The position numbers and the translations under genes were made by a program. From positions 714 to 64,713 of the IMG/VR virus record IMGVR_UViG_3300031998_002794: a stretch of DNA of 64,000 bases; one strand, given 5' to 3'. This document shows positions 4,059-24,749 of the stretch, piece by piece (position 1 is the stretch's first letter; every line of letters starts with the position of its first letter). The notes below the pieces were generated by a model. The model was given only the letters and a program-made list of their open reading frames with translations, did no database searches and had not been told where the DNA came from. The DNA comes from a virus (Duplodnaviria; Caudoviricetes).

Positions 4059-4367
4059 ATGCAAGAGATGGATTTGAATGAGGCACTTGACATCCTCAAG
4101 AAAAACAACGCACAGGTCATCAATGAAACTACATCAGTGACTGCGCCTACATTCATTATGGGCAGCATTGGAGTTGATGCTATTCAGAAATTCATGGAGT
4201 ACATCAAGGACGACATTAAGAGCCAAGCTATTGACCCAGATGAAGGCAATGCGTTCTATGCTAAAATTAATGATGCTCTTGATAACGTTCCCGATAACTT
4301 TGAAGAACAGCTTGGCGAAGCAATTTTTAAGGTTTTAGGCGTTGACCCATACGCTGACGGAGAATAA
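4059..4367 (+). CDS. hypothetical, putative internal head protein (shared leader)
   Basis: GGAG RBS; N-terminus MQEMDLNEALDILKKNNAQVINE. Confidence 0.7.
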   Translation: MQEMDLNEALDILKKNNAQVINETTSVTAPTFIMGSIGVDAIQKFMEYIKDDIKSQAIDPDEGNAFYAKINDALDNVPDNFEEQLGEAIFKVLGVDPYADGE

Positions 4368-4368
4368 A

Positions 4369-4905
4369 ATGAAAGTAAAAGACGCACTCAATATCATTAA
4401 GAAAGCAGGTGGTACCGCTGAACCGCTCAACGAGACCACTTGGACGCCAGGTACTAAAAGTAAGTATGATGGCGGCTATCGTAACATTGTCCCTTATGTT
4501 TCACATGGACTTCCAGCAAAGAAGAAAGGTCCAGGCGTTCGTTGGGCAGGATATACATTTACTGCCAAGCCGACTCCTGATATGAGCTACGTCAGAATTT
4601 TAAAGACCATTGCGGATTTGGGTAATAGCGCCACTAAGCGTGAGATTTATGATCATCTTGGTTGGCAGTATTCTCCGGGTAACCGCAGTGGTATTTTTGT
4701 TGCCTTGCATGACGAAGACCTCGTATCTTATGACAAGTCAACAGGCAAATGGTCAGTCACTGAAAAAGGATTTGACTTCATGAAGGATAATCCTGAGGCA
4801 TTTGCTACAGCAGAAGATAAAGCCGACGATATTCCAGTAAAAGAAGGCGAAGAAGTCGAACAGACATTTATGGACTTTATTAAGGAACAAGGATATGGCA
4901 TCTAA
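4369..4905 (+). CDS. hypothetical with a winged-helix-like central region, putative internal head protein
   Basis: Start MKVKDALNIIKKAGGTAEPLNE; segment ATKREIY...LHDEDLVSYDKSTGKWSVTEKG resembles a wHTH. Confidence 0.65.
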   Translation: MKVKDALNIIKKAGGTAEPLNETTWTPGTKSKYDGGYRNIVPYVSHGLPAKKKGPGVRWAGYTFTAKPTPDMSYVRILKTIADLGNSATKREIYDHLGWQYSPGNRSGIFVALHDEDLVSYDKSTGKWSVTEKGFDFMKDNPEAFATAEDKADDIPVKEGEEVEQTFMDFIKEQGYGI

Positions 4906-5635
4906 TATAGATGAAGGATTGTTTGGCGGCAATAGCTACGACAAGTTTAAGAGTCAAGTAATTGCCACTTTAATCAAACGTTTCGGAATTAAGATCCCAG
5001 CTGGCATGAAGCGTGCTGAGGACTGGATAAGAGATTATTTCGTCGAGAAGTATTCCGTTTGGGACACTGTAATCGCTATGAAAGACAATTTCAGAGAGTA
5101 TGCAACAAACGAATCTACTGAGCTCGATGAAGCAGTCAAGACTTTGGAAGACGCTGGTCTTGTATGCGAAGTTTTCATGAAGGACGATAGAGGCAATGTA
5201 GCTCTTACTGATTTGGTTCAGAAGATCATTGAAAAAGCCGGTCTCGTCTATGACAACGAAGACGCTGTAACATCTGCTGCATACTACATCGCTGACTTCT
5301 ACTCCAAGCAGTCTATGCCAATCAATGGTATGGTGATGTGGGGTTCAAGAGACCTTCAGAAATTCAAGAGAATGTGTGACCAGTCAATTCAGACAGCAAA
5401 TTCAAGTGAAGAAATCAATGCATGCGAGTATAAGGCAGTAACCAATACCCGTTCTATTATGCTTGGCAACCCAGGCAGAAAGGCTCAGTGGATTGAAGAA
5501 ATCAAGGCAGAATATAAGGCTGCATCTGCAGACGCTGCTGAAAAGCGTCGTCAAGCATACCTTGCTTCTGACGAACATAAACACATGAATGACCCAGGTT
5601 GGCGTGGTCCGAATGGAACATGGTCAAACGACTAA
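4895..5635 (+). CDS. hypothetical with an internal copy of the shared leader
   Basis: 246 aa; internal ELDEAVKTLEDAGLVCE at aa 76-92. Confidence 0.7.
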   Translation: MASNIDEGLFGGNSYDKFKSQVIATLIKRFGIKIPAGMKRAEDWIRDYFVEKYSVWDTVIAMKDNFREYATNESTELDEAVKTLEDAGLVCEVFMKDDRGNVALTDLVQKIIEKAGLVYDNEDAVTSAAYYIADFYSKQSMPINGMVMWGSRDLQKFKRMCDQSIQTANSSEEINACEYKAVTNTRSIMLGNPGRKAQWIEEIKAEYKAASADAAEKRRQAYLASDEHKHMNDPGWRGPNGTWSND

Positions 5636-5680
5636 TATAAATACCAAACAGTAAATCAAACCGTTTAAGGAGATGGTGAT

Positions 5681-6154
5681 ATGAATAGAGAAGATGAATT
5701 GTTTATCGCAAAGAAAACCGCTGAGAAGGCTGGTTACAAGGTTACTCTCCCGGGTGCCGCTCCTGCAGAACCTGCACCGGCAGGCGATGGCGCAGCTCCA
5801 GCACCGACTACTCAGGTGCCGAGATTCAGAACAATGAGCCGCAGTGACTATGCAGCTCGTCAGGGTCAGCAACAGGCTGGTTCGCAACGTCCTTCTATGG
5901 CCGACCGATTGGCAACCCTTGCTGCCGCTGCAAAGACTGCAGAAGCACATGGATATCATATTCGCAAGGCTACCCCGGAAGAAATCGCTGCACGTCAGGC
6001 AGCACAGACTCCTACACCTGCAGAACCTGCTCCAGCTCCAGCACCGGCTGCTCCTGCAGAACCGACACCTGCAGCTCCGGCAGCACCAGCAGCACCTGAA
6101 AAGAAGACTAACCCTTACTTGTCAGCAGCTGCTCGTTTCATGCGACAAGACTAA
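5681..6154 (+). CDS. Pro/Ala-rich low-complexity protein
   Basis: TATAAATA at 5636 and AAGGAG RBS; repeated PAEPAP units; duplicated KTAE(K/A)(A/H)GY motif. Confidence 0.7.
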   Translation: MNREDELFIAKKTAEKAGYKVTLPGAAPAEPAPAGDGAAPAPTTQVPRFRTMSRSDYAARQGQQQAGSQRPSMADRLATLAAAAKTAEAHGYHIRKATPEEIAARQAAQTPTPAEPAPAPAPAAPAEPTPAAPAAPAAPEKKTNPYLSAAARFMRQD

Positions 6155-6172
6155 TTAACATTTTTGGCTCCT

Positions 6173-6203
6173 GACCGTGGGACTCGTTCTCACGGTCTTT
6201 TTA
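6173..6203 (+). terminator. intrinsic terminator
   Basis: GACCGTG...CACGGTC followed by TTTTT. Confidence 0.75.
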
Positions 6204-9630: not shown

Positions 9631-11436
9631 ATGAAGTTATTAAAATACATCATCATCGCATTGGTGCTGCTTTGCTCAAGCGGATTTGCTGTGGGCCTTG
9701 CAGATGGAGCTGCCAAGTTCGTTGGCAACATCACTACTAACGGTCAGGTCCGTTCGGACTTTGGTCAGTACTGGAACCAAATCACTGCAGAGAATGAATG
9801 TAAGTGGGCGTCTATTGAAGGCAGCCGTGGAAATTATAACTGGCGTGGTTGTGACGCTGCTTATAATTGGGCAAAGCAGAATAACGCTCACTTCAAGTTT
9901 CATGCTCTCGTCTGGGGTTCTCAATATCCAAACTGGTTGAATGGACTTTCAGTTGACGAAACGAAGAAAGCAATTACAGCTTGGTTTGACGCAGTTAAGA
10001 ACCATTATCCTGATTTGGAAATGATTGACGTAGTTAATGAAGCCATCAAGTCAGGTGGTTCATATCACTCTGGATACGGTAACGGAAACAACATTATTGG
10101 TGCTCTCGGCGGAGACAATGGAAATTATGAATTCGTTGTTACTGCCTTTAAGATGGCTCGTGAACGATGGCCAGATGCTATCTTAATTTATAATGACTAT
10201 AATACTGTCCAGTGGCAGAAGAATGAAGGTATTGACCTCATCAATAAGATTAAGAAAGCTGGTGCTCCGGTAGACGCTTACGGACTTCAGGCACACGACA
10301 TGCAGAAGGCTGGTGGCGGTAACGGCGGTACTGGTGGTGGCGGTACCTGTTTGGACATTAATCAGTTGAAGTCCGCTATTGAAGAAATTTGGACAAAGAC
10401 ACAGATGCCAATGTTCATTTCAGAATATGATATTGCTTCTGACGATGACAATGACCAGAAGAACTGTTATTCTCAACAGATCTCATACTTTATGGAAAAT
10501 GAACATATCGCCGGCATTACTTTGTGGGGCTACATCTATGGCTCAACTTGGACTACTAACGGCAACTCCGGCATTATTAAGAATGGACAAGATCGTCCTG
10601 CTATGACATGGCTCAAACAGTACTTGGCAGAAAATAAAGGCGTGAACTCGACTGGTCTTCCAACAGGCGACGGCGTAACTATCGTTGAACCTGAACCTCA
10701 GAAACCTTTCAAGGGTAAGGCATTTGATTTGACTGCTCCTATTGAAGCGGAAGACTTTGACATCCCAGGAAAAGGCGCCGGTAATAATTCATATCTCGTA
10801 TCTGGTGATTGTGATGATGTATGGAACACAACCTATCGTTCTGGCACTTCTGTAAAGATTGGCGATAAGAATGGTGGAATGGTAATTGGATGTAATGCAA
10901 CAGGCAACTACTATCAGTACACAATTAAGGTTCCTGAAGCTGGTAACTACATTGTCTATGCTACCGTAGCCGCTGATGGCGAAGGCGCTATTCTGTTCAA
11001 AGTTGGCGACAAGGCAGTATCTGATACAATGAAGTTCACAGGCGACTCATGGTCTAAATTTGATAAGATTAAGGGACATGCAACCTTCAGCTCTGATGGT
11101 GAACAGATCTTGACCCTTGAAATTGCTCAGGGCTACATTGATGTTGACAACTTCGAGTTTGCAGTAACTGACTGTGCTCCAGGAGATGTAACTTGCGGTG
11201 GTCCATCATACAACTGTGATGCTTATCCTGATGATCCTATGTGCAAGACTGTTGACTTTGACTTCCGTCTCGCAGAACAGAAGGTACTTAAGCTTTGGTC
11301 TGCCTTTGACGCTAATGGGAAGTGGATGGGAAATGTATCTGCCTATACAGCAGATGACGCTATCCGTTTCATGAAGTTGAAACCGGGCCTCTATATCATC
11401 AAAGCAAACGGTAAGTGGCAGACAGTAATTAAGTAA
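9631..11436 (+). CDS. secreted GH10 endo-1,4-beta-xylanase with a CBM6-like module and a Fibrobacter-type C-terminal domain
   Basis: Signal peptide; NQITAENECKW, FHALVWGSQYP, DVVNE (acid/base Glu at 10039), YNDYN, GLQAH, ISEYD (nucleophile Glu at 10423), GITLWG; IEAEDFD-initiated beta-sandwich; C-terminal FDANGK..G.YIIK. Confidence 0.92.
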   Translation: MKLLKYIIIALVLLCSSGFAVGLADGAAKFVGNITTNGQVRSDFGQYWNQITAENECKWASIEGSRGNYNWRGCDAAYNWAKQNNAHFKFHALVWGSQYPNWLNGLSVDETKKAITAWFDAVKNHYPDLEMIDVVNEAIKSGGSYHSGYGNGNNIIGALGGDNGNYEFVVTAFKMARERWPDAILIYNDYNTVQWQKNEGIDLINKIKKAGAPVDAYGLQAHDMQKAGGGNGGTGGGGTCLDINQLKSAIEEIWTKTQMPMFISEYDIASDDDNDQKNCYSQQISYFMENEHIAGITLWGYIYGSTWTTNGNSGIIKNGQDRPAMTWLKQYLAENKGVNSTGLPTGDGVTIVEPEPQKPFKGKAFDLTAPIEAEDFDIPGKGAGNNSYLVSGDCDDVWNTTYRSGTSVKIGDKNGGMVIGCNATGNYYQYTIKVPEAGNYIVYATVAADGEGAILFKVGDKAVSDTMKFTGDSWSKFDKIKGHATFSSDGEQILTLEIAQGYIDVDNFEFAVTDCAPGDVTCGGPSYNCDAYPDDPMCKTVDFDFRLAEQKVLKLWSAFDANGKWMGNVSAYTADDAIRFMKLKPGLYIIKANGKWQTVIK

Positions 11437-11460
11437 ACTGTTTGACATTATTTACAGTAA

Positions 11461-11485
11461 GGGACGCGAAAAGCGTCCCTTTTTT
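11461..11485 (+). terminator. intrinsic terminator
   Basis: GGGACGC-gaaaa-GCGTCCC followed by a T run. Confidence 0.85.
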
Positions 11486-11585
11486 CTATTTGGAAAGTTT
11501 TTGCGGCAGTACCCATTTACAAGTTCTACAAAATTGTTTAAATTTGTTTTCAGATAGAATAAATAACTAAAAGAAAGGAAAACGA

Positions 11586-14500
11586 ATGAAAAAGATAATT
11601 CTATACATCTTGGCTTTTGCGGCCGCCCTCTTCGCAGCTGAGGCAGACGTAAAACCACTTGTCTTCACAGGAGTCGCTGACCAGCAGGCTCAATACGAGT
11701 ACATGCTACAGTATAAGCTCTATGGCTACGAATACTTGAAGATCGGCCAGAATGACACCATTCCTGATAAGTCGGGATGGAACGGTTCTGAAAAAGAAAT
11801 TACAATGAACCATCAAGTAGTTCTTGGTGGACCAATCTTGACGCAAGGCGCTTTTACAGTCGGTAACGGTACTGACTTGAAGACTGGACCTGTCAGAGCG
11901 CAGTCAATGACGATGGGTAATGACAACGGTTCTAACTTTGCGGGCAACTATTGTGTAGCCGATGGAGTTTCAACTCAAATTTCCAACATCATCACTCGAA
12001 GCGAAGGCAAAGTATCTTGTGATTCAGTACCAGCTGCCCCGTCTGGGCTTCAGATGCCTACTCTCGTCTTCCCTGACACAACAGCAATGGAAATTACCGT
12101 GCCTGACCGTGGAAAGGTCTACATAGATATTCCCGACGAGCCAACCGTTGATATGTTTATTAAGTCTATCACAACAGGTACTGAAGACACATTGTATTTC
12201 CGTATGAAGAACAAGGGAACTCTTACTCGTGTATTCGTTGAAGGCTCTATTTCCTTCGGCAACCACACGGTAGTTCAGGTTGTGTATGCCTCACCTGATG
12301 GAGACAGCGTAATTACACAAGACAAGTTCCGTGGCAACCTCATGTTCTATACACAGGAAGACTTTAACATTCGTAACACTGACTATTCCAAGCTGCAAGG
12401 AACTTATATCTCCACAAAGAAGATTAACTTAATTTCAAACATTGACTTTGCTGGACAGTTGCTTGCTAATGAACTTGAGATTGGCGATAACTTCAGTGGT
12501 AAGAATTTCAGATTCGTTAAGTTCAACCCAGATACTCTTGACTTTCCTGAGTTGAATAAGCAAGGCGGCTTGAGAGAAAATGACAGCACAGTCATTATTC
12601 CGATTGAACTTAGTGATACATCAACTATTGAGGTATTCTTTACATACTGCTTTGATATGAAGGACGGAGTCACTGTTGAAGACTTCAACCAACCGCCATT
12701 CATTCCTGTATGTGGAGATACATCAATTACCACAAAGATTCCTATCGGTTCTAAGGCGCCAGTAGATACGATTAAGGTCAATGTAAAGGTAGATACTCTC
12801 GTAGAACCAAATGAATACTTGATTATGCACATTGACAGTATTAGTGGTGCGGTTTTGCCTAACGGCGAGACTTCAGGCGAGTTGAAGATTAAGATCATTG
12901 ATGCTAAGGCTGATACGAACAGAGCTCCGAAGTTCGCTACGGAAGATACTACTTTGTTCATTCCTGAAAACACAAAGCCAGGAATTATTGGAACTATTGC
13001 AGCGACTGACCCGAATGGCGACAAGTTGTCATACACCATTCTAGGAACGGTGCCATTCATAGTAGACAGCGTTGGCAATATAAGTTCTACAAGAGAGTTT
13101 GACTTTGAGAAGGAAAAGCAGTTCACATTCAAGTTGGTCGCTTCCGATGGTAAGTTAACTGACACTTGTAAGGTAACTGTTAAAGTAACTGATGTAAATG
13201 AGCCTGTTCATGCAAAGGACACAACCTTCAGCATAGATGAAGGTAAAGTCGGCGACCTAGGAAAGATAACAGGGGAGGACGAAGATGGAAAGCCTGTTAA
13301 ATTTACTGTCAATGATACTAATGCTTATCGCATCGATAGCACTGGGATACTTACCTTGGTAACTCCGTTTGATTACGAGAAACAGAAGACCGACACTGTG
13401 ACTGTATATGTTACTGATGGAACATTTACAGATTCTGCTATCGTAATCATCAACATTAAGAATGTGAACGGTAACCCTGAACTTCAACCAAATGACAGTT
13501 TGACTGTTCCTGAGAACTGCAAGAGCTGCATCGTTGGTATCATTACTGCAACTGACCCAGATAATGACCCAATTACCTATGATGTAATTCAGCAAGGATT
13601 TACGATTGACAGCAACGGCGTGTTGAAGTTGACTGACCCGCTTGACTTTGAAACAACACCTGAAGTAAAGATCACAATTCTTGCGAAGGATCCGAACGGT
13701 GGTGCAGATACTGCTATCTACGTCGTCAAGGTTACAGACATCAATGAGCCTGTTCATACAAAGGACACTACTTGTTCTGTAAAGGAGAATTACACAGGAA
13801 AGATCTGTAAGGTGACTGGTACTGATGAAGATAAGACAACTCCGACATTCATCATTTCTGACACAACTAATTATTCTATTGACTCAACAGGAACTATCAC
13901 TATCAAGAACCCGATTGACTATGAAAAGAAGACAAAGGACACTGTAAAGGTTATCGTCACTGACGGTGAATTTGCAGATACTGCGACTATCATCATACGA
14001 GTACTTGATGAGCCTGAAACAGTCGAGATTACAAAGTGGGACGATGAAAAGCCTAAGGACACTGTAAAGACTAACGATCCTGACCATCGCTTTGAATGGC
14101 AGGTATGCGAAGGCGACACTTGTAACGGTCACATCGAGACACCTCACATCAGAAAGGACACAACAATTAAGGTATGTAACGACAAGAAGACAGTATGCGA
14201 CTCTATCGTTGTTCTGTTCAATGACGCCCCTCCTGTGGTCACATTGACAAATGCGAAGAGCACAGACGCCTACATTGACTACATCACTATTGAGGAAGTT
14301 AAAGACGATAAGATCTACGTAAACAAGAAAGATAATCAGTTGACTGTGACTGTCAAGGACACTGTCCACAAGACAACGAAGTCCTTCCCAATTGACGTCA
14401 AGCTAGATACAGTCCATGTAAGTTCCAAGAACATCAAGGACTATTCATACTTGATTGACGAAACATTGGCGACATACACATCAATTGGTAATGGTAAGTT

Positions 14501-15767
14501 CGAGAAGAAGGAAGTTATCAAGGACGGCGATGTAGTTATTACATTGACTCAAATCGTTGATAAGCATCACGACAACTTGGACACTGTGCAGACCGTTACT
14601 TACACTGTCAAGCAGGATGGAAAGGAATTGACCATTTCTTATCAGACTGACAACTTGACAGGAACACGAGTTTCTGACTACAAGGTTGCATATAAGATTG
14701 ATTCTTGCACAACAGTTTCTTACTACTTGGACGACAATAAGAAGATCTCCAAGAATAAGGAAGGCAACATCGCTTATACTGTGACATACGACTATACCGA
14801 CGATTTCGGCAACAAGGCATCTTCAAAGGTTGACATTATCTTTGACGATATTCCGCCTAAGGTTCAGATCTTGTCGCCGACTGACTTCGAGAAATTCAAC
14901 TCTAACGCTGTAAACGTAAAGTGGACAGTAAATGGAGAGGTTCAAGATACCTTGACATTGCAGCGCCTCACTAAGGGCGTGAACCACGTCGTCAGACGCT
15001 ACGTTGATAAAGCCGGCAACGTCGCTACTGATACTGTGACTGTGATTATGAATGAAGCAAAGGACATTGACATTAGCCTCGTTCATCCAGTAACAGAAGT
15101 TGACCAAGACAAGGTTGACGAATGGTATAGCGACTCGCATAACAAGTATGATCCTAAGAAGCCTTACGTCATCAAGACAGTAGACCCTAAGAATGACACT
15201 TTGCCTGACGTTATCGGCGTTGGTTTCAAGGTTGACATTGCATTGCCTTCTGTCTCGCCGACTGGTGGTTTGGCAACACTTGATGATATCGTCAAGAACG
15301 GCCAGATTCCTGTTGATGACAAGGGACATATAGTTGGTGCTTCTACTAAGGGCATTCCTGTAGACCAGTATGTTGAAGAACATTGCACAGAAGACTTCAA
15401 GAAGGACTACAAGAAGCATGGTCTCAACATTCCATTGTATGATGTGACCTACAACATGCACTTGTGGATTTACACAACTCAAGCAAACTACGTAAATGAC
15501 TTCGTTGTAGAATATACATTGAACGACGAGGACAAGGCCACATCGGCTGGTACTGTTCAGATGGTCATTGACTGGCTCTCTGACAAGGATGGAAATGTAA
15601 AGGCTAAGAATCACCATTCACTTGGAACTTCTAGCTACATTACATCGCTTTACGCAAAGTCTGTCGCTAAGCATCGCTGCGACTACAATGAACAGAAGAA
15701 AGGCGACAAGACTGTAAAGAAGGATGAAACAATGAAGGTCTTCGGTTACAAGCGTCCGAAGAAATAA
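11586..15767 (+). CDS. secreted cadherin-repeat surface protein (Calx-beta-like, 4 cadherin repeats, Ig-like domain, C-terminal FGYKRP domain)
   Basis: Signal peptide MKKIILYILAFAAALFA; four ~90-aa repeats with PEN, DxD, D(F/Y)E and DxNEP Ca-binding motifs at 12918-14018; Ig-like DIPPKV..YVDKAGN. Confidence 0.85.
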   Translation: MKKIILYILAFAAALFAAEADVKPLVFTGVADQQAQYEYMLQYKLYGYEYLKIGQNDTIPDKSGWNGSEKEITMNHQVVLGGPILTQGAFTVGNGTDLKTGPVRAQSMTMGNDNGSNFAGNYCVADGVSTQISNIITRSEGKVSCDSVPAAPSGLQMPTLVFPDTTAMEITVPDRGKVYIDIPDEPTVDMFIKSITTGTEDTLYFRMKNKGTLTRVFVEGSISFGNHTVVQVVYASPDGDSVITQDKFRGNLMFYTQEDFNIRNTDYSKLQGTYISTKKINLISNIDFAGQLLANELEIGDNFSGKNFRFVKFNPDTLDFPELNKQGGLRENDSTVIIPIELSDTSTIEVFFTYCFDMKDGVTVEDFNQPPFIPVCGDTSITTKIPIGSKAPVDTIKVNVKVDTLVEPNEYLIMHIDSISGAVLPNGETSGELKIKIIDAKADTNRAPKFATEDTTLFIPENTKPGIIGTIAATDPNGDKLSYTILGTVPFIVDSVGNISSTREFDFEKEKQFTFKLVASDGKLTDTCKVTVKVTDVNEPVHAKDTTFSIDEGKVGDLGKITGEDEDGKPVKFTVNDTNAYRIDSTGILTLVTPFDYEKQKTDTVTVYVTDGTFTDSAIVIINIKNVNGNPELQPNDSLTVPENCKSCIVGIITATDPDNDPITYDVIQQGFTIDSNGVLKLTDPLDFETTPEVKITILAKDPNGGADTAIYVVKVTDINEPVHTKDTTCSVKENYTGKICKVTGTDEDKTTPTFIISDTTNYSIDSTGTITIKNPIDYEKKTKDTVKVIVTDGEFADTATIIIRVLDEPETVEITKWDDEKPKDTVKTNDPDHRFEWQVCEGDTCNGHIETPHIRKDTTIKVCNDKKTVCDSIVVLFNDAPPVVTLTNAKSTDAYIDYITIEEVKDDKIYVNKKDNQLTVTVKDTVHKTTKSFPIDVKLDTVHVSSKNIKDYSYLIDETLATYTSIGNGKFEKKEVIKDGDVVITLTQIVDKHHDNLDTVQTVTYTVKQDGKELTISYQTDNLTGTRVSDYKVAYKIDSCTTVSYYLDDNKKISKNKEGNIAYTVTYDYTDDFGNKASSKVDIIFDDIPPKVQILSPTDFEKFNSNAVNVKWTVNGEVQDTLTLQRLTKGVNHVVRRYVDKAGNVATDTVTVIMNEAKDIDISLVHPVTEVDQDKVDEWYSDSHNKYDPKKPYVIKTVDPKNDTLPDVIGVGFKVDIALPSVSPTGGLATLDDIVKNGQIPVDDKGHIVGASTKGIPVDQYVEEHCTEDFKKDYKKHGLNIPLYDVTYNMHLWIYTTQANYVNDFVVEYTLNDEDKATSAGTVQMVIDWLSDKDGNVKAKNHHSLGTSSYITSLYAKSVAKHRCDYNEQKKGDKTVKKDETMKVFGYKRPKK
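12918..14018 (+). repeat. four tandem cadherin-like repeats (protein level)
   Basis: Repeats 2 and 4 both start VH(A/T)KDTT and contain IDS(T)G and D(F/Y)EK; repeats 1 and 3 contain PEN..ATDP. Confidence 0.85.
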
Positions 15768-15818: not shown

Positions 15819-15833
15819 CTGTATAAATACATT

Positions 15834-16586
15834 ATGGAATTAGTAGAAGCTTTGGAAACATTAAAATCTGCAGACTTGATTGCTGAATCATTGACAGCGA
15901 ACAGACGAAAGTTCTATGTAATGATTGACAAGTTGCTTGAACCTTTCGAGACTGACTCTTACTATTATGAAGAGCCGAACGACGCTATGGGCGAAGACGC
16001 TATCGTTCTTAAGCGTTCAATTCTTAAGAAGATTTCAAAAGAACAATTACAGCACATTGTTGATGTTTGTGGATATCAGATGTCTGTTCATGCCCCGAAG
16101 AACGGCAACGACATTTGGATAACACCAGTAAACGGTGATGAATTGCATGACGATAACTTTGTCTATGAAGACGGTTATCGTATTCTTTTCCATGTTAGCC
16201 CAGTCAAAGATCTTGACAAGAAAGGCATTCGTTGTAAGTCTCGCCCTACTGACAAAGAATTTGACGTTTATCATGGCCGTATTTACTGCATGATGACTGA
16301 CGACGATGTTGACCACGCAAGATCTATGGTCACTGCTGAACACAACAAGCACAAAGCACATCTATACACATATAAGATTAAAGTACCGAAAGGATACGAA
16401 ATCTATCCTGACCCGACTACTCCTGACGGTGTCTATTTGACAAATAACATACCGCCTCAATTCATTGAACGAATTGATGACTTTGACAATGACATTGACC
16501 ACTACATTGAAAATGAAGAAAAGAGACGGCATGACCTCGCTGCACGAGCAGCCAAGATAAATAATTTAGACGGTATTAAGCTCTAA
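15834..16586 (+). CDS. putative internal head protein with a His-type ADP-ribosyltransferase-like domain
   Basis: Leader MELVEALETLKSADLIAE; LFHVS..KGI..GRIY..YKIKVP..PDP..GVY..NIPPQFI pattern. Confidence 0.55.
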   Translation: MELVEALETLKSADLIAESLTANRRKFYVMIDKLLEPFETDSYYYEEPNDAMGEDAIVLKRSILKKISKEQLQHIVDVCGYQMSVHAPKNGNDIWITPVNGDELHDDNFVYEDGYRILFHVSPVKDLDKKGIRCKSRPTDKEFDVYHGRIYCMMTDDDVDHARSMVTAEHNKHKAHLYTYKIKVPKGYEIYPDPTTPDGVYLTNNIPPQFIERIDDFDNDIDHYIENEEKRRHDLAARAAKINNLDGIKL

Positions 16587-16595
16587 AGGAATTTT

Positions 16596-18515
16596 ATGAA
16601 CGAAGAAAACAGCTTTATCAAGTATCTTGTAGATGAAGGCGTTCTCGACGGTGACATTAGCCGTTGGGATATGGCTAAGATTAACAAAGGTATTGCTCCA
16701 AAGTGGGCAAAGAAGGTGACTGAAATCGGACCTCGCCCGAAGCGTCCTGAAACAAGTTCATCACCTTCTGAAGTAGCGATGCGCAGAGTCACTGAACCGA
16801 ACTATCGCCCAGCATACCGTGAAAGCGATATGAAGGCAGACAACGCTGCAGAACAGAAAATGAATCAGCGCATAGCTGATATTCTTCAGAAGAAACTCGA
16901 CTTCCCTATCGCTGCTACAAAAGACGATATTACGATTAACACACCGCATGTAAGATTCTTCGTTTACCCATACGGTTTCGTCTACAAAGTAAAAGCAGTC
17001 TACAGTCCAACCCGTAAAGAAATGAAAGACTGCGAAAGTATTGCTGAAGTTATTCAGTTCATTCAGGCTTGCCTTTCAAAAGACATGCAGATTGAAACTG
17101 CTCTCGGCATTCTTAAGGATAATGGAGCTGAAATCATCAAGGAAGATACTGACGAATATGATGACGCTGACCTCGGTATCAACGTAAACCCTAAAGAATA
17201 CCATAAGCAAAAGGGCTTGATGAAATCCTTGAAAGACCGTATCATCGATGTCTATGAGGAATTCATTCACCGTAAAGAAAAAGAAGCTGAACAGTCCTGG
17301 AAGAAAAATGTTAAGTACCGCGCAGGTACTAACGATGAAGACAGCCTTATGGAAAACTATGAAGATTGCTGGAATGAAAAGTTCCCGCATAAGAACACAA
17401 TGACTCCATTCGAGTTCTATAAGGTAATGATGTCAAACTACGATACCCGTGACTTCATCAAGTCTAAGACTGGTAAGCAAATGGGAAATTACGTCCAGCC
17501 AGATCACGATGACGACGACGATGATGATACAAGCCTTGAAAAACCGAAAAATGGTGACTTTGAATACTGCCAGCGATGCTGTAAGAGTCCAACTAACAAG
17601 AAGAAATTCATTGCAGAAATCAAGAGCTTGTTAAGCAAAGCAAAAACTGCAAAAGAATTCATCAAGCTGGCCGCAAAGCGTGGTGACAACTACTTTGATA
17701 TGTGGGACAAGCTTGATGACAAGATTGATAATCTTGAGGATAAAGACAAACCAGTTCCTAAGGAAATGAAAGAAGAATGTCAATTCTTTAGCATCATGAA
17801 CGATTGCCTTGAATACGAAATCGGTGATGAAGACGAATGGATTGGTATGTGCTGTAAAGAAGCCGGAACAATTCAAAAAGTTAAGAAGGTATTTGAGATC
17901 TTGTTTGCTGAAAACTTCAGTACTAATGCTGCTAAAAAGGCTGCTGCATTTGTTCTAGGTAAGAGCGGCAAGGAAAAGAAAGGAACTGCAAAGAAATCAT
18001 CTGAACAACAAGTACCACCTATCGTCAAGGTGATGTATAAGTCATTCATGGAAAAGATGAAAGTCAAGTACATCTACCGTGCAGTTAACGTAGACACTGA
18101 ATGGGTTGATGACCAGCTTGATGATATGGAAGACAAGTGGAACCAAGAAGATAAAGCCGAGTACTTGCGTAAAAACAAGTATAAGGAAAGAATGGGCTTA
18201 GCAAATGTCAACCTCCACGCAGTTGGTAAATCTTGGGCTTGGGCTGAAGATGAAGCAGATGACGTTTGTGGTGGCGATGGCGATACTTACATCATTGAAG
18301 CAGAAAATGATCCTGCTAACGTTGACTTGCCAATGTCTGCCCTTTGTTTTGCTGAATGGTCTCATTTCAAGAACAACGGTACTGTAGGTGGCGGTGAATG
18401 CGAAGTTCGAGTACTTAACGAACTTGATGTTACTGTAACTGACGTATTCATCGGTAAAGGAAAGAATAAAACTCACCTTAACCGTCGTGAAACATATTAC
18501 AGAGAAGAAAATTAA
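16596..18515 (+). CDS. large putative internal protein with a C-terminal R-S-E ADP-ribosyltransferase-like domain (Alt-like role)
   Basis: YIYRA (Arg at 18078), GKSWAW (Ser at 18231), GECEV (ExE at 18396-18404); internal leader copy at 17085. Confidence 0.6.
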   Translation: MNEENSFIKYLVDEGVLDGDISRWDMAKINKGIAPKWAKKVTEIGPRPKRPETSSSPSEVAMRRVTEPNYRPAYRESDMKADNAAEQKMNQRIADILQKKLDFPIAATKDDITINTPHVRFFVYPYGFVYKVKAVYSPTRKEMKDCESIAEVIQFIQACLSKDMQIETALGILKDNGAEIIKEDTDEYDDADLGINVNPKEYHKQKGLMKSLKDRIIDVYEEFIHRKEKEAEQSWKKNVKYRAGTNDEDSLMENYEDCWNEKFPHKNTMTPFEFYKVMMSNYDTRDFIKSKTGKQMGNYVQPDHDDDDDDDTSLEKPKNGDFEYCQRCCKSPTNKKKFIAEIKSLLSKAKTAKEFIKLAAKRGDNYFDMWDKLDDKIDNLEDKDKPVPKEMKEECQFFSIMNDCLEYEIGDEDEWIGMCCKEAGTIQKVKKVFEILFAENFSTNAAKKAAAFVLGKSGKEKKGTAKKSSEQQVPPIVKVMYKSFMEKMKVKYIYRAVNVDTEWVDDQLDDMEDKWNQEDKAEYLRKNKYKERMGLANVNLHAVGKSWAWAEDEADDVCGGDGDTYIIEAENDPANVDLPMSALCFAEWSHFKNNGTVGGGECEVRVLNELDVTVTDVFIGKGKNKTHLNRRETYYREEN

Positions 18516-18775: not shown

Positions 18776-19672
18776 ATGTTTAAGAGAAATGAAAACCTCA
18801 GAGCTGCCGGTGAGCCAGTCGCTATGACTGCCGAACAGTTGCAAGAATACTTGAAATGTAAAAGAAGTGTTTTCTATTTTGCGAACTACTTCACAATTCG
18901 TGCTGCTGACGGCGACCACCCAATTCAGTTGAGAGAATACCAACAGCGTTTGGTAAAGTCAATTATCACAAAAGATCCTGACAAGAATAACCGAATCATT
19001 ATGATGGGTCGTCAGTCAGGTAAGACAACTATCGCTACCCTCTATTTGACGTGGTATGCGCTGTTCCACCGTTCAAAGACTATCGCTATTCTGGCTAACA
19101 AGGCTGAACAGGCTGATGAAATTATGCTTCGTATTCAGGAAGCATACATGGCCTTGCCTTTGTGGTTGCAGCAAGGAATCGTGAAGTGGAATGCTGGTGA
19201 AATGATTTTGGAGAACAAATGCAGAATGTTCTCCGCAGCATCTTCATCTTCGTCTATTCGTGGTAAGACCGTTGACATTGAACTCGTGGACGAGTTTGCT
19301 CACTTGGACAACAACGTTGCTGACTCATTCATGATGTCAGTTTTCCCTACCCAAGCTTCTAGACCTGACTCAATGCTTTTGCTTATCAGTACTCCTAACG
19401 GCATGAACCACTTCTACGACATTTGGCAAAAGGCTAAGTCTGGTCGTAATACATTCATTCCTTGTAAAGTCCAGTGGTATGAAATTGAAGGTCGTGACGA
19501 AAAGTTCAAAGAACGAGTTATTCGTGACAACGGTATTAAGTATTTCATGCAGGAATTTGCTTGCTTGACTCCAGACCAAAAGATTACGCTTAAAGACGAT
19601 AACGGCAATATCAGAACATTAACGATTGGCGAAGCGTATCAGTGGATGCGAGATTGCGGTGAGCTGGAATAA
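18776..19672 (+). CDS. terL: terminase large subunit N-terminal ATPase half fused to a split-intein N fragment
   Basis: LREYQ, GRQSGKTT (Walker A), SIRGK, LVDEFAH (Walker B), ISTPNGMNHFY; extein ends YFMQEFA; no nuclease domain. Confidence 0.95.
   Translation: MFKRNENLRAAGEPVAMTAEQLQEYLKCKRSVFYFANYFTIRAADGDHPIQLREYQQRLVKSIITKDPDKNNRIIMMGRQSGKTTIATLYLTWYALFHRSKTIAILANKAEQADEIMLRIQEAYMALPLWLQQGIVKWNAGEMILENKCRMFSAASSSSSIRGKTVDIELVDEFAHLDNNVADSFMMSVFPTQASRPDSMLLLISTPNGMNHFYDIWQKAKSGRNTFIPCKVQWYEIEGRDEKFKERVIRDNGIKYFMQEFACLTPDQKITLKDDNGNIRTLTIGEAYQWMRDCGELE
19562..19669 (+). other. atypical short split-intein N fragment (36 aa)
   Basis: CLTPDQKITLKDDNGNIRTLTIGEAYQWMRDCGELE begins with Cys1 at the QEF(A/E)|CEF site and matches the intein block A pattern. 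Confidence 0.85.
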
Positions 19673-20000: not shown

Positions 20001-20354
20001 ATGGAACAGGAACTTAAAGAAGCACTTGAAACACTTGATAGTGCAGGTCTTATCGCTGAAGCTAGTGGATGGACTGCTCAAGATGTGGTCGATGAACTGT
20101 ATAGAAAATTTGACCCTGACTTTGGTGGCCTCAACGGATGGTCTTGTAATGTAGGACCTAACAACACAGTTTTCGTTTATCATAAAGACTATACATACAA
20201 AGTTTCAATAAAGCCTTCTAAACAGACTGTTGAAATTAAGATCTATGCTGGAAAGGCTCAGTTCACTGGAAAAGTTTTTGACTTCATTGAGTTTGGCACA
20301 TTTAAAGACTTTATGCAGTACATTATTAAATACATTCGTTCATGGGGAAAATAA
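20001..20354 (+). CDS. hypothetical, putative internal head protein
   Basis: Leader MEQELKEALETLDSAGLIAE. Confidence 0.7.
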   Translation: MEQELKEALETLDSAGLIAEASGWTAQDVVDELYRKFDPDFGGLNGWSCNVGPNNTVFVYHKDYTYKVSIKPSKQTVEIKIYAGKAQFTGKVFDFIEFGTFKDFMQYIIKYIRSWGK

Positions 20355-20356: not shown

Positions 20357-20692
20357 ATGGAATTGAATGAAGCATTAGAAACACTTGAGCAGAATGATCT
20401 CATTCCTATGAATGAGAATGAATTGTCCGATTACTTGATGGATAAAGTCTACAGAACTGCTGAAGAAATTTACGCCCGAGAGATTGACGAAAATGTTCCC
20501 GTTCTCGATGGTTCTAACCAGCCTTCTCGTGAATACTTGGAGCGTTTTGATTATCTATCTGACAATTTAAAAAATGCGGTTAAAAGGGCGTCTACAGCCT
20601 TGTATAATGACCTAAAGTCAGAAGGAATAGATATTAACGTAGAACACATACAGCATGAAATCTATGCTGCTTTGAAATTATACAGCAAATAA
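20357..20692 (+). CDS. hypothetical, putative internal head protein
   Basis: Leader MELNEALETLEQNDLIPMNE; start moved from 20342 to this Met. Confidence 0.7.
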   Translation: MELNEALETLEQNDLIPMNENELSDYLMDKVYRTAEEIYAREIDENVPVLDGSNQPSREYLERFDYLSDNLKNAVKRASTALYNDLKSEGIDINVEHIQHEIYAALKLYSK

Positions 20693-22222: not shown

Positions 22223-22794
22223 TGGGAAATTTAAGAATTGCGAATTTCATGAATAAAGGACATGCGACTCCAGCACCAGTCTGGATGTTCCAAGTCTATT
22301 TCTATTTCAACGAGAATTTTCAGAACTATCACAAAGTACCGACTGATGTAACTACATTGGATACATTCACTTGCATCAAGATTGACTTGCCAAGATTTGA
22401 AGATACATTGAAGGCAGTCAATTTCTTGGGCACTGAAATGAACTGCACAGTCTATCGTGATATGACTGGTGAAACTGCGCTTGACTTCTGGTGTCAAGCT
22501 GGCGAGAAGATAGGAAACAAAGATCCGTCAGAAATTTCATTCCTGGATATGATTCTGCCTGGAACGGATGGTGGTCTTATGGACTACTTTACTCATAGCG
22601 AGTTCCTTCCGCCTTTCAGCAGAATAGATATCGTTCTTAAAAACATTAACGGCGACAACTTCAGAAAGATCCGTCTCTATAACCCTCAGATTAAAGGCTT
22701 TGAGTTCCAAGGCGCATGTAATTATGAGGGCGATGAAGGATTGAAGTGGACACTTAACGTTCACTATGATGGTTGGGAGGAGGTCAGAAACTAA
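22222..22794 (+). CDS. tail tube (gp19-fold) paralogue
   Basis: WMFQVYF..IKIDLP..NFLG..LYNPQI..LNVHYD pattern; TAATG-coupled to the previous gene. Confidence 0.55.
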   Translation: MGNLRIANFMNKGHATPAPVWMFQVYFYFNENFQNYHKVPTDVTTLDTFTCIKIDLPRFEDTLKAVNFLGTEMNCTVYRDMTGETALDFWCQAGEKIGNKDPSEISFLDMILPGTDGGLMDYFTHSEFLPPFSRIDIVLKNINGDNFRKIRLYNPQIKGFEFQGACNYEGDEGLKWTLNVHYDGWEEVRN

Positions 22795-24179
22795 TGAATG
22801 TAGCTGACATCTTTTGTGAATACATCTACGGAACATTCTTAATCGTCGAGGCAGCACTTGAGGTTGGTATTCATGCTGCCCAGTCGTTGATGCACATGCT
22901 TAACGCCTTCTTTGACGCTGTCCTTTCATGGTTCAAGTACGTCGTTGATACGGCAATGGAGGCCATCTTAAACGGTGTCAGGGTCATACAGAAAAAATTA
23001 GTAGACTTAATCTGGGACGGCTATAAGACAGGTCCAGATGGGAAGAAAGGAAGTAAGTTCTGCTCGAACTTGTTCCGATGCAACATCTTCCTTGACCAGA
23101 TGACTGACTCTAACTCGCTTATCTGTAAGACCCTCATCAAGCTCGGCGTCATGACGAAGGAACAACAGCAGTACATCAACACAATCATTCAAGACTTCAA
23201 TACATTCCAAGAAACGGTATGTAACTTCGGTTTCACTTTCAACTTCGGCCTTTCTGCATTGAAGAAAATGCTTATGTGGTATAAGGAAAAGATTGAAGAA
23301 TTCTTGAAGATGATTGAACGAAAGAAGGACCAGTTAAGACGCTTGCTTCAGACATACTTGAACAGGCTCATTGACAGTGGTATCTTTGATTTGCTGATTA
23401 AGCTCAGAAAGTTCTTCAACTGTATTCTTGCCAACAGCGATACATGCTCTAACATCGCTACTGCTAGCAACTATTATCAGAACTGCTTAGGTTTCCTTCA
23501 CATTGAAGAAAACGGACTTGGAGGCTATCGTATCAACAGCGATGACCAGAATAAGTTTACGAATGCGTTTGACTCAAGACTCAATAAGTTGAACAACAGT
23601 AAGCAGGAATTGCAGCAGCTCATTGACTCGATGATGAACCCGTCAGATGTTCTTGCTGCGTCTAAGGCATTTAACTTGGCAAGCAACGTCTTCCCTGGTG
23701 GAATGTCTTTGACTGACATCAAGAATGGCAACTGGTCTAAGAACAAGATGGTTCATTACTTCCAAGTTCGTGCTGATGAATTCATGGAAGCGTTCTGCCA
23801 TAAGCACAAGATTGAAGACTCTACTGCAGGCTCAACAGAATACTTGCTTAACGGTATGAGCATCAATGATAAAGATGGCACTATCACGATGAGAGTCAAT
23901 GACATCGTTGAAGTCATTAACCCGAATGACCCTTCCACAATGCAAGGGTATACAAACAACATGCTCGGTTACACAACCGCCGATTATGAATACTATACAC
24001 CAGTCGGCGAAAACCCAGATGCACCAGAACCGATTTACTGGAAGGGAAGAATCATTTCTGCTTTGTATGGCGCTATAAGAATTTCAGAAGGCGACAAAGA
24101 ACTAGCTGAACATTGCCAGAATACATATTCTAGAACTGTTAATACATTCAGTGAAGAGGAGCTCGTTACAGCATGGTAG
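22794..24179 (+). CDS. hypothetical helical protein
   Basis: 461 aa from the TAATG-coupled start. Confidence 0.75.
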   Translation: MNVADIFCEYIYGTFLIVEAALEVGIHAAQSLMHMLNAFFDAVLSWFKYVVDTAMEAILNGVRVIQKKLVDLIWDGYKTGPDGKKGSKFCSNLFRCNIFLDQMTDSNSLICKTLIKLGVMTKEQQQYINTIIQDFNTFQETVCNFGFTFNFGLSALKKMLMWYKEKIEEFLKMIERKKDQLRRLLQTYLNRLIDSGIFDLLIKLRKFFNCILANSDTCSNIATASNYYQNCLGFLHIEENGLGGYRINSDDQNKFTNAFDSRLNKLNNSKQELQQLIDSMMNPSDVLAASKAFNLASNVFPGGMSLTDIKNGNWSKNKMVHYFQVRADEFMEAFCHKHKIEDSTAGSTEYLLNGMSINDKDGTITMRVNDIVEVINPNDPSTMQGYTNNMLGYTTADYEYYTPVGENPDAPEPIYWKGRIISALYGAIRISEGDKELAEHCQNTYSRTVNTFSEEELVTAW

Positions 24180-24289
24180 AAGCTATGGCACAGTGGATTG
24201 CTTTGGGCGTCATGTTTGCTATTATCTGTGTAGCAGCGTATGAAGTCGTAAACTTCTTTTATTGGTTGATTGATAAGTTTAAAAAGTGA
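24173..24289 (+). CDS. small single-TM peptide (38 aa)
   Basis: MVEAMAQWIALGVMFAIICVAAYEVVNFFYWLIDKFKK fills the gap between two genes; absent from the ORF track. Confidence 0.5.
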   Translation: MVEAMAQWIALGVMFAIICVAAYEVVNFFYWLIDKFKK

Positions 24290-24296
24290 GGTGATT

Positions 24297-24749
24297 ATGT
24301 TAATAAATGAAGCAATAGAAAAACTTGGTAGAGCAGGACTCATCTGCGAAGATCATGGGATGGATCCTGAAGAAAGAGCGTGGATGGTAACGAACGCTGT
24401 CGCTGGCCTTTGGCTAGACGAATTTAAGAAGCAGTTGCCAAAAGGCTACCGCGTTGAATTTGTAGTAGGCAATAACAATGTAACCGGCATATCAGATAAA
24501 ACGCCGAACATTAACATCTATAACGACAACTATAAACCAAAAGGTCAGTTCTCGCTTCCATGTTGCGAGAACCCAAGAAACATTGCTTTTGAAAACTGCT
24601 ATTCGTCAAGTTCGTTCAAGGATCTTAAAGGCGTTCAAGTAGCAATTCATTACCCAGGCGTTCGTCGCATGGCTGACCGCTTTACTTTGCCACAAGAATA
24701 CAACATTGAGAAGACAGTCGCTAACATCATCAAGGATTTCGTAAAATGA
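24297..24749 (+). CDS. hypothetical, putative internal head protein
   Basis: GAGGTG RBS; leader MLINEAIEKLGRAGLICE. Confidence 0.7.
   Translation: MLINEAIEKLGRAGLICEDHGMDPEERAWMVTNAVAGLWLDEFKKQLPKGYRVEFVVGNNNVTGISDKTPNINIYNDNYKPKGQFSLPCCENPRNIAFENCYSSSSFKDLKGVQVAIHYPGVRRMADRFTLPQEYNIEKTVANIIKDFVK

What the first reader, a model, noticed from the sequence alone, without database searches (positions are those of the whole stretch)
4059..24350. Shared N-terminal leader 'EAL..L..AG.I.E' on many unrelated ORFs: candidate new capsid-targeting signal
Seen in the sequence: MDLNEALDILKKNNAQVINE (4059), MKVKDALNIIKKAGGTAEPLNE (4369), MELVEALETLKSADLIAE (15834), MEQELKEALETLDSAGLIAE (20001), MELNEALETLEQNDLIPMNE (20357) and MLINEAIEKLGRAGLICE (24297). 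The sequences downstream of the leader are unrelated to each other. Established: T4 internal proteins carry a short N-terminal capsid-targeting sequence (MKTYQEFIAE) removed by gp21 at (I/L)-X-E. Inference: this is a longer (~18-22 aa) amphipathic targeting leader ending in a gp21-type site. It would mark a payload of proteins packaged into the head and ejected into the host, and could serve as a portable packaging tag.
Basis: partly seen in the sequence, partly recalled or inferred. Interest (0 to 1): 0.8.

Follow-up and report, generated by a model that had tools for sequence, protein, structure and literature searches.

The report
Shared capsid-cargo leader in jumbo phage
An uncultured T4-type jumbo phage puts the same 18-22-residue tag, ending in its head protease's cutting motif, on many unrelated proteins, most likely to load them into the capsid as T4 does; this is not yet shown by experiment.

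Summary
The window holds eight copies of one peptide, all in real + strand ORFs. Six are N-terminal (4059, 4369, 15834, 20001, 20357, 24297) and two are internal (5114, 17085). The consensus is M-E-L-N-E-A-L-x-x-L-x-x-A-G-(0-4 aa)-hydrophobic-x-E.

It is selected at the peptide level, not the DNA level. It is the only shared N-terminal motif among 304 genes of this phage and a 184-kb relative.

A profile search of 1.84 billion proteins gave 80 hits. Of these, 77 carry the full leader and 72 have it at residue 1-8. The downstream sequences checked (72, the window's eight included) fall into 48 BLAST-unrelated families.

The first three copies sit directly after a T4 gp21-type prohead protease (Peptidase_S77) in a late operon. 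Every copy ends in the gp21 rule (I/L/V/M)-x-E.

In two cargo families the leader varies or is swapped while the residues after the Glu stay invariant. One cargo has an ADP-ribosyltransferase (Tpt1/KptA-like) fold, recalling T4 Alt.

Best reading (about 0.65): a lineage-specific, longer variant of the T4 capsid-targeting sequence. Cleavage and packaging remain untested.

This scan has found the same kind of tag, with other sequences, in other T4-like lineages. I class it as a new variant of a known kind.

The parts
3348..3355 (+). T4-type late promoter TATAAATA ahead of the protease / leader-gene operon
   Evidence: 10 exact copies in the window, all on the + strand, against 2.1 expected
3373..4050 (+). 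Prohead core protease, T4 gp21 family (Peptidase_S77); the presumed enzyme that removes the leader
   Evidence: PF03420 at 5.4e-33. phrog_207 at 2.2e-56. T4 gp21 structure 5JBL at 1.7e-19, with His (G-E-L-E-H-P) and Ser (G-V-S-S-R-G) present.
4059..4127 (+). Leader copy 1 (ends I-N-E) on ORF 4059-4367, a 102-aa acidic small protein
   Evidence: HMM 35.7 bits. Orthologue in G001 keeps the junction N-E|T-T.
4369..4434 (+). Leader copy 2, divergent with a 4-aa insertion (ends L-N-E), on ORF 4369-4905. The mature part is weakly winged-helix-like.
   Evidence: HMM 30.3 bits, but not recovered in leave-one-out. Orthologues carry a canonical leader (P0255). The wHTH lead rests.
5114..5170 (+). Internal leader copy (ends V-C-E) at residues 74-92 of ORF 4895-5635
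   Evidence: HMM 32.4 bits. The orthologue in L003/L004 is a 100-aa protein that stops 7 residues after the motif.
15822..15829 (+). Late promoter TATAAATA ending 4 nt before the start codon at 15834
15834..15887 (+). Leader copy (ends I-A-E) on ORF 15834-16586, whose body has an ART (Tpt1/KptA-like) fold
   Evidence: HMM 31.2 bits. AF2 gives helix 3-12 then a coil of pLDDT about 57. Fold match Z 8.0-8.7. Orthologues swap the leader at an invariant E18-S19-L20.
17085..17144 (+). Internal leader copy (ends I-K-E) at residues 164-183 of ORF 16596-18515. It marks the joint of an in-frame fusion.
   Evidence: Homologues of residues 183-639 are stand-alone 462-493-aa proteins that begin with the leader. 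The junction E|D-T-D-E-Y is invariant.
20001..20060 (+). Leader copy (ends I-A-E) on ORF 20001-20354
   Evidence: HMM 35.1 bits. Orthologues P0198 and P0241.
20357..20416 (+). Leader copy (ends M-N-E) on ORF 20357-20692
   Evidence: HMM 30.4 bits. The G001 orthologue (82% identical body) has two leaders in tandem.
24297..24350 (+). Leader copy (ends I-C-E) on ORF 24297-24749
   Evidence: HMM 35.4 bits. Orthologue P0201.
38715..39677 (+). T4 gp22-type scaffolding (core) protein, the presumed docking partner and a protease substrate
   Evidence: PF25623 T4_CASP at 5.2e-12. It has 18 [LI]-x-E sites, 5.6 per 100 aa against 1.2 in the proteome.
39783..41075 (+). Major capsid protein, T4 gp23 family
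   Evidence: PF07068 at 1e-67. The Pfam match starts at residue 77, and an L-L-E site lies at residue 52.
35527..37128 (+). Portal protein, T4 gp20 family
   Evidence: PF07230 at 1e-61

Best explanation
The peptide is a lineage-specific capsid-targeting propeptide. It has two halves.

Residues 1-13 form a short amphipathic helix (M-E-L-N-E-A-L-x-x-L-x-x-A) capped by Gly. I infer that this half docks the protein onto the gp22-type scaffolding core while the prohead assembles.

The tail (hydrophobic-hydrophobic-x-Glu) is an exposed linker. I infer that the gp21-type protease cuts it after the Glu once the shell has closed.

The leader would then leave the head. The mature protein would stay inside with the DNA and be ejected into the host at infection.

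Because the tag is self-contained, evolution has moved it onto dozens of unrelated proteins, so it marks the phage's injected payload. Where it lies inside a protein it would act as a protease joint.

Shown here: the motif, its N-terminal position, its modularity, the protease, the scaffold and the late operons. Inferred by analogy with T4: docking, cutting, packaging and ejection.
For: 1. The motif is real and N-terminal. It is the only large cluster (20 members) in an all-against-all comparison of 304 N-termini.
2. Selection acts on the peptide: synonymous codons differ and the upstream DNA is unrelated.
3. An S77/gp21 protease with His and Ser present lies directly upstream of three copies, behind one late promoter.
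4. All 8 window copies end in I/L/V/M-x-E. So do 76 of the 80 database hits by my regex, with P3 = I 64, L 9, V 2, M 1. This is the published gp21 rule L/I-x-E (PMC9026906).
5. The scaffold is 4.6-fold enriched in [LI]-x-E, as expected of a gp21-type substrate.
6. AF2 models of two cargo proteins put the leader in helix 3-12, followed by a low-confidence coil that contains the Glu, before the folded body.
7. Modularity. Orthologues of ORF 15834 carry either this leader or an unrelated N-terminus of about the same length (16-18 aa) that also ends in hydrophobic-x-E, before invariant S-L. Orthologues of the 16596 cargo have very different leader variants before an invariant D-T-D-E-Y. Tandem double leaders exist.
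8. Breadth. There are about 14 copies in the 184-kb relative G001, including a tandem array of small tagged ORFs. Full leaders sit on nine or more further IMG/VR contigs that were seeded with only the first 8 residues. Of 80 hits among 1.84e9 proteins, 77 are true and 72 are N-terminal. The 72 downstream sequences checked (the window's eight included) form 48 BLAST-unrelated families.
9. Cargo. ORF 15834 residues 100-216 match Tpt1/KptA at Z 8.0-8.7, and other ART-fold chains (toxins, Arr) fill much of the list at Z 5.5-7.4. This parallels T4 Alt, a CTS-tagged packaged ART (PMC9026906).
Against: - There is no virion proteome, cleavage assay or packaging assay for this phage or any relative, and no cultured relative. 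The nearest cultured MCP is about 32% identical.
- The helix half has no detectable similarity to the T4 CTS. The leader profile finds nothing in a T4-type, a Pelagibacter-phage or a cyanophage genome.
- Two window copies are internal. In relatives the motif can sit a few residues from the C-terminus, where cutting would release almost nothing.
- A few copies in G001 lack the terminal Glu.
- The identity of the docking partner is pure analogy.
Confidence: 0.65

Rival explanations
1. The peptide is a protease-recognition cassette only. The helix would be an exosite that presents the hydrophobic-x-Glu to the prohead protease, which has very low intrinsic specificity. Incorporation into the head would be decided by something else, or the proteins would be scaffold or core components rather than ejected cargo.
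For: - The motif works in any position: N-terminal, internal at fusion joints, near-C-terminal.
- Three copies are adjacent to the protease gene.
- The small acidic ORF 4059 sits next to the protease gene, as the small T4 core genes 67 and 68 do.
Against: - The T4 precedent places targeting in the N-terminal half of the CTS and processing in its last residues (PMC9026906).
- 72 of 80 database hits are strictly N-terminal. An exosite would not need that.
- Copies without the Glu keep the helix.
- The scaffold carries many [LI]-x-E sites without any such helix.
Confidence: 0.15
2. The peptide is a stable N-terminal helix with another function that is never removed, for example oligomerisation or binding of a common host or phage factor.
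For: - The helix is short, amphipathic and conserved across many proteins.
- No experimental evidence of cleavage exists.
Against: - Glu at the end and I/L/V/M two residues before it are near-invariant, and an S77 protease is present.
- In the AF2 models the leader is detached from the fold by a low-confidence linker.
- Orthologues replace the leader with an unrelated sequence but keep the hydrophobic-x-E junction.
Confidence: 0.08
3. The peptide is a recognition leader for a modifying enzyme, RiPP-like. This scan concluded that for a shared tag in phage RB43 (e1-127136).
For: A shared N-terminal tag on unrelated small proteins is also the signature of one-maturase-many-substrates systems.
Against: - No maturase-like gene neighbours the tagged genes. 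The only radical-SAM gene in the window is NrdG, next to NrdD.
- The conserved partner next to the tags is the protease.
- The tag has no Cys, Ser or Thr pattern typical of modified cores.
Confidence: 0.03
4. The shared peptide reflects chance, hidden paralogy or a DNA-level repeat.
For: The motif is short.
Against: - Scores are bimodal: 27-36 bits against 6 or less.
- Shuffled controls do not reproduce it.
- Synonymous codons vary.
- The mature parts are unrelated.
- The full motif was recovered independently from a partial seed in other contigs.
Confidence: 0.01

Closest known systems
Phage T4 capsid-targeting sequence (CTS) of internal proteins IPI, IPII, IPIII and Alt, removed by gp21 (Mullaney and Black 1996, as reviewed in PMC9026906, PMC3012670, PMC5694885)
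   Same: - A short N-terminal propeptide shared by otherwise unrelated proteins.
- It ends in (L/I)-x-E.
- The phage encodes a gp21-family protease, a gp22-family scaffold, a gp23 MCP and a gp20 portal.
- The tagged set includes an ART-fold enzyme, as T4's includes Alt.
- The last four residues are often (L/F)-I-A-E, as in T4.
   Different: - It is 18-22 residues long against 10 in IPII/IPIII.
- The targeting half is a Leu-rich helix capped by A-G, with no detectable similarity to the aromatic T4 CTS.
- About 8 copies occur in 64 kb and about 14 in 184 kb of a roughly 340-kb genome, against 4 in T4.
- It is also used internally, in tandem and near C-termini.
Propeptides of giant phages phiKZ, 201phi2-1 and SPN3US, cut by their prohead proteases (PMC5694885, PMC10052503)
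   Same: A jumbo phage in which many head proteins are processed after Glu. Propeptides are thought to target proteins into the prohead, and multiple sites occur per propeptide.
   Different: - Those propeptides are mostly over 100 residues, are not a shared sequence, and use a small residue (A/S/G)-x-E rule.
- Here the protease is S77 (5e-33) and not S80 (0.08).
- The P3 residue here is I/L/V/M.
Lineage-specific CTS-like leaders noted by this scan in other uncultured T4-like phages (e1-3862018, e1-5862810, e1-5826867, e1-6033753, e1-5756021, e1-5702602)
   Same: The same logic: one short leader ending in hydrophobic-x-E on many unrelated proteins, sometimes acting as polyprotein joints.
   Different: The leader sequences differ (for example a 10-residue tag in e1-3862018) and so do the phage lineages (marine or freshwater). 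I did not re-test those notes.
Encapsulin cargo-loading peptides
   Same: A short portable peptide that loads diverse enzymes into an HK97-fold shell.
   Different: Those peptides are usually C-terminal, bind the shell protein directly and are not cleaved. There is no protease and no scaffold.

Membership tests
T4-type CTS / internal-protein system | One short N-terminal peptide shared by proteins whose remaining sequences are unrelated | tested here: met
   Database-wide, 72 of 80 hits are N-terminal, and the 72 downstream sequences checked (the window's eight included) form 48 unrelated families.
T4-type CTS / internal-protein system | The peptide ends in the gp21 cleavage rule (L/I)-x-E | tested here: met
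   The 8 window copies end in IAE, IAE, ICE, VCE, INE, LNE, MNE and IKE. In the database hits P3 = I 64, L 9, V 2, M 1.
T4-type CTS / internal-protein system | The phage encodes a gp21-family protease and a gp22-type scaffolding core | tested here: met
   PF03420 at 5.4e-33, phrog_207 at 2.2e-56, 5JBL at 1.7e-19. PF25623 at 5.2e-12.
T4-type CTS / internal-protein system | Sequence homology of the leader to the T4 CTS | tested here: not met
   The leader profile finds nothing in a Tequatrovirus genome, Pelagibacter phage Mosig or S-RIM2. Only the last 3-4 residues resemble T4. It therefore works like the T4 CTS but is not a sequence relative of it.
T4-type CTS / internal-protein system | The leader is necessary and sufficient for incorporation into proheads and is removed by the protease; the mature protein is ejected | not testable with these tools
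   No virion proteome exists and no host is cultured. Indirect support only: a disordered linker at the junction and an invariant junction with a swappable leader.
phiKZ-like giant-phage propeptides | S80-family protease and an (A/S/G)-x-E rule with long, protein-specific propeptides | tested here: not met
   S80 scores only 0.08 against S77 at 5e-33. P3 is hydrophobic, and the leader is short and shared.
ADP-ribosyltransferase superfamily (cargo of ORF 15834) | ART beta-sandwich fold | tested here: met
   AF2 mean pLDDT is 75. Foldseek matches KptA/Tpt1 at E 4e-4 with probability 0.99-1.0. VIA gives Z 8.0-8.7, rmsd about 2.7 A over about 89 residues, with other ART-fold chains (toxins, Arr) at Z 5.5-7.4. 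Catalytic residues were not mapped.
R-S-E ADP-ribosyltransferases such as T4 Alt (cargo of ORF 16596, C-terminal domain) | ART fold with an Arg, Ser, Glu-x-Glu triad | tested here: inconclusive
   R332, S383 and E438-x-E440 are invariant in 20 homologues. The fold match to pertussis-type ARTs is only Z 3.8-4.0 on a 476-residue model, and whole-model Foldseek found nothing at E of 0.001 or better.

The most novel reading that the evidence does not exclude
The leader is a self-contained, position-independent address label for a whole clade of uncultured jumbo T4-type phages of roughly 330-380 kb. Under this reading:
- it alone suffices to load any protein into the prohead;
- its Glu joint lets the phage string, swap and release cargo modules;
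- the proteins that carry it (48 unrelated families in this first sample, including two ART-like enzymes) are the phage's injected effector arsenal.
That would give both a sequence key for mining ejected anti-host proteins from metagenomes and a new orthogonal packaging tag.
Probability: 0.45. Interest if true: 0.62.

Novelty: new variant of a known kind. Interest (0 to 1): 0.5.

Why it matters
If the tag does what the T4 CTS does, a plain sequence profile would list the proteins that an uncultured clade of jumbo phages carries in its heads and injects into its hosts. Such proteins are otherwise invisible in metagenomes, because they have no homologues and no annotation.

In this first sample those proteins already form 48 unrelated families. 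They include ADP-ribosyltransferase-fold enzymes, which are natural candidates for host take-over or anti-defence functions.

It would also show that the targeting half of a CTS can be replaced by a quite different peptide while the protease rule is kept. That bears on how cargo docks onto the T4-type core. It would also offer a second packaging tag, possibly orthogonal, for phage-capsid engineering.

The principle itself has been known since 1996 and recurs in other lineages, so this extends it rather than breaking new ground.

Tried and rejected
1. Homology of the leader to the N-terminus of the T4 core protein gp67. This was a resemblance I recalled and then read from a Tequatrovirus record. 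The 38-sequence leader HMM scores it at about 0 bits, and 39 of 200 shuffles do as well. Rejected.
2. A second shared leader. The alternative N-terminus seen on orthologues of ORF 15834 is private to that family: one hit in G001 and none in the window or other loci.
3. Complex prediction of the scaffold (alignment A4) with the leader (alignment A5) gave no answer, with score 0.00. This is no evidence either way.
I replaced it with a degenerate DNA seed.
5. For ORF 16596, the ESM Atlas, a PDB sequence search and whole-model Foldseek were uninformative.
6. tblastn of a 21-residue leader against 50,697 GenBank phage records found no match at E of 10 or less. Sensitivity is low for so short a query.
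7. The predicted winged-helix nature of the ORF 4369 cargo stays a weak lead: phrog_2440 at E 0.016 and Atlas TM 0.4-0.5.
I rebuilt the alignment from stored hits instead.

Full report
OBSERVATION

A strict regex over all six frames hit only the + strand and only inside real ORFs. An HMM built from the copies separates eight sites (27-36 bits) from everything else in the 64.7-kb record (next best 6 bits). The two extra sites are internal: residues 74-92 of ORF 4895-5635 and residues 164-183 of ORF 16596-18515.

Leave-one-out models recover six of the eight at 11-23 bits against noise of 7 or less. The copies at 4369 and 17085 are divergent, with short insertions after the Gly.

Shuffled proteomes give 0.16 regex hits against 5 observed. 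The chance of six of eight copies lying in the first 8 residues of a protein is 6e-9.

Codon usage at synonymous positions differs between copies and the upstream DNA is unrelated. So the peptide is what is conserved, not a DNA repeat. The sequences after the leader show no significant BLASTP similarity to each other.

An unbiased all-against-all comparison of the first 24 residues of 304 predicted genes (window plus a 184-kb relative) produced one large cluster of 20, which is this leader. Otherwise it gave small clusters of 2-6, most of them orthologue pairs.

CONTEXT

The window is about one fifth of an uncultured T4-superfamily jumbo phage.
- Its head module is T4-type: Peptidase_S77 protease (PF03420 5.4e-33; phrog_207 2.2e-56; T4 gp21 structure 5JBL 1.7e-19, with the His and Ser motifs present), portal PF07230 (1e-61), scaffold PF25623 T4_CASP (5.2e-12) and MCP PF07068 (1e-67).
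- The nearest cultured phages are cyanophage and Pelagibacter T4-likes, at about 32% (MCP) and 39% (protease) identity.
- Related IMG/VR contigs reach 184,671 bp at a CheckV completeness of 54%, and 139,105 bp at 37%. That implies genomes of roughly 330-380 kb.
- The T4 late-promoter octamer TATAAATA occurs 10 times, all on the + strand (2.1 expected). One copy (3348) lies just before the protease, with leader ORFs 4059, 4369 and 4895 following in the same orientation. One (15822) ends 4 nt before the start codon of ORF 15834. One (18752) lies ahead of the terminase ATPase gene, which is followed by 20001 and 20357.

The tagged genes are therefore probably expressed late, together with head genes. 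That last step is an inference from promoter position.

ANATOMY OF THE LEADER

Thirty-eight distinct copies from the window and its relatives align to the following pattern:
M-E-L-N-E-A-L-x-x-L-x-x-A-G-(0 to 4 residues)-hydrophobic-hydrophobic-x-E

AF2 models of two tagged proteins, each built with alignments of 20-22 homologues, both place residues 3-12 in a helix. A low-confidence coil that contains the terminal Glu follows, before the folded body begins.

All eight window copies end in I/L/V/M-x-E. This is the rule established for T4 gp21, L/I-x-E with cleavage after Glu (PMC9026906).

The phage's own scaffold carries 18 [LI]-x-E sites, 5.6 per 100 residues against 1.2 for the proteome. That fits a gp21-type enzyme that shreds its scaffold.

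EVOLUTIONARY EVIDENCE FOR A SEPARABLE, PROCESSED MODULE

(a) Orthologues of ORF 15834 (40 found) are highly conserved from residue 18 onward, with E18, S19 and L20 invariant. The preceding 16-18 residues are either this leader or a quite different sequence that also ends in hydrophobic-x-E. That other N-terminus is private to this family.

(b) Homologues of residues 183-639 of ORF 16596 are stand-alone proteins of 462-493 residues. They start with leader variants that differ strongly from one another, and an invariant D-T-D-E-Y-D-D-A-D follows directly. The 639-residue ORF of the window is thus an in-frame fusion of an upstream gene with a leader-tagged gene, and the leader is the joint. The fused form is on record on three contigs.

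(c) In the relative G001 the same upstream domain is instead fused to the ORF 15834 homologue, and it ends in a degenerate copy of the motif followed by a stop. In L003/L004 the homologue of the first 92 residues of ORF 4895 is a 100-residue protein that stops 7 residues after the motif.

(d) Tandem double leaders occur, in the G001 orthologue of ORF 20357 and in P0266.

BREADTH

- G001 has about 14 copies, 11 of them N-terminal, including an array of small tagged ORFs at G001:1975-3858.
- A degenerate DNA seed that covered only the first eight residues recovered the complete motif on nine or more further IMG/VR contigs, often several copies per contig.
- A 36-column profile searched against 1.84 billion representative proteins gave 80 hits at E of 0.001 or better. 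Of these, 77 carry the full leader, 72 start within the first 8 residues, and P3 is I (64), L (9), V (2) or M (1).
- I took the downstream sequences of at least 50 residues from those hits and added the window's eight. The resulting 72 fall into 48 BLAST-unrelated families.
- The profile finds nothing in a Tequatrovirus, a Pelagibacter-phage or a cyanophage genome. A 21-residue tblastn finds nothing in GenBank phage records (low sensitivity).

CARGO

- None of the tagged proteins has a Pfam or PHROG family.
- The body of ORF 15834 (residues 100-216) has an ADP-ribosyltransferase fold closest to Tpt1/KptA. Foldseek gives E 4e-4 with probability 0.99-1.0. VIA gives Z 8.0-8.7 at rmsd about 2.7 A over about 89 residues, with other ART-fold chains (toxins, Arr) at Z 5.5-7.4.
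- The C-terminal domain of the ORF 16596 cargo keeps an invariant Arg, Ser and Glu-x-Glu. It matches ART toxins only weakly, at Z 3.8-4.0. That is suggestive and not settled.
- The ORF 4369 cargo is weakly winged-helix-like.
- An ART among the tagged proteins parallels T4 Alt, which is CTS-tagged, packaged and ejected (PMC9026906).

MECHANISM

I infer the following by analogy with T4, where the first half of the CTS decides targeting and the last residues decide processing (PMC9026906):
1. The helix docks the protein onto the gp22-type core during prohead assembly.
2. The protease cuts after the Glu.
3. The leader leaves the head.
4. The mature protein stays with the DNA and is ejected into the host.

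Internal copies would act as protease joints of fused cargo. Copies without the Glu (two in G001 flanking the protease gene) may be targeted but uncut. In T4 an Asp at that position blocks processing but not targeting (PMC9026906).

No step of docking, cutting or packaging has been measured.

RIVALS

- A pure protease-recognition cassette (0.15) is hard to exclude, because the motif works in any position. It does not explain the strict N-terminal bias or the copies that lack Glu.
- A stable functional helix (0.08) conflicts with the invariant protease rule, the detached linker and the leader swap.
It lacks any maturase here.
- Chance or DNA repeats are excluded.

COMPARISON AND NOVELTY

The system works like the T4 CTS / internal-protein system and meets its structural criteria. 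The targeting half, however, has no sequence similarity to the T4 CTS. The tag is about twice as long, far more widely deployed, and also used internally.

It differs from phiKZ-type propeptides, which are long and protein-specific, follow an A/S/G-x-E rule and are cut by an S80 protease.

This scan has already reported the same kind of lineage-specific tag, with other sequences, in other uncultured T4-like phages. I found no paper describing this leader in the held library.

Verdict: the feature is real and robust. It is a new variant of a known kind, and the interest is moderate.

Noticed in passing
window 16596-18515; G001:115225-116530 (L014): Gene fusion and fission happen around the leader. 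The window fuses an upstream 163-aa domain to a leader-tagged 476-aa gene. G001 instead fuses that same domain to the ORF 15834 homologue (435 aa) and ends it with a degenerate motif plus a stop.
   Followed up: partly
window 18776-19672: The terminase large subunit ORF holds only the ATPase half: 298 aa, with phrog_5989 matching profile positions 94-345 of 347. The nuclease half is not adjacent.
   Followed up: no
window 22794-24179: A 461-aa protein has a sub-threshold Pfam hit to MavL-like ADP-ribosylhydrolase (E 0.0086, 15 bits against a cut-off of 27). This is of interest given the ART-fold cargo nearby, but may be chance.
   Followed up: no
window 5681-6154: A Pro/Ala-rich 157-aa protein sits behind its own late promoter (5636). 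It has two short repeats of the type A-K-x-T-A-E-x-x-G-Y-x-(V/I), vaguely leader-like but without the terminal Glu. It is conserved next to the protease in relatives.
   Followed up: no
window 9631-15767: A signal-peptide GH10-like glycoside hydrolase ORF and a 1393-aa repeat protein lie between nrdDG-like genes and the tagged genes.
   Followed up: no
G001:1975-3858 (L009): A tandem array of five to six small ORFs (93-131 aa), each starting with the leader and with unrelated bodies. It is reminiscent of the hyperplastic internal-protein loci of T-even phages.
   Followed up: partly
window 38715-39677: The scaffold protein is 4.6-fold enriched in [LI]-x-E (18 sites). The MCP has an L-L-E site at residue 52, ahead of the Pfam Gp23 match that starts at residue 77, so it is a likely propeptide cut.
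   Followed up: partly
scaffold homologues P0159 and P0178: Close scaffold homologues are deposited as proteins of Methanobrevibacter MAGs, on contigs of over 400 kb. This is probably jumbo-phage contigs mis-binned into archaeal genomes.
   Followed up: no
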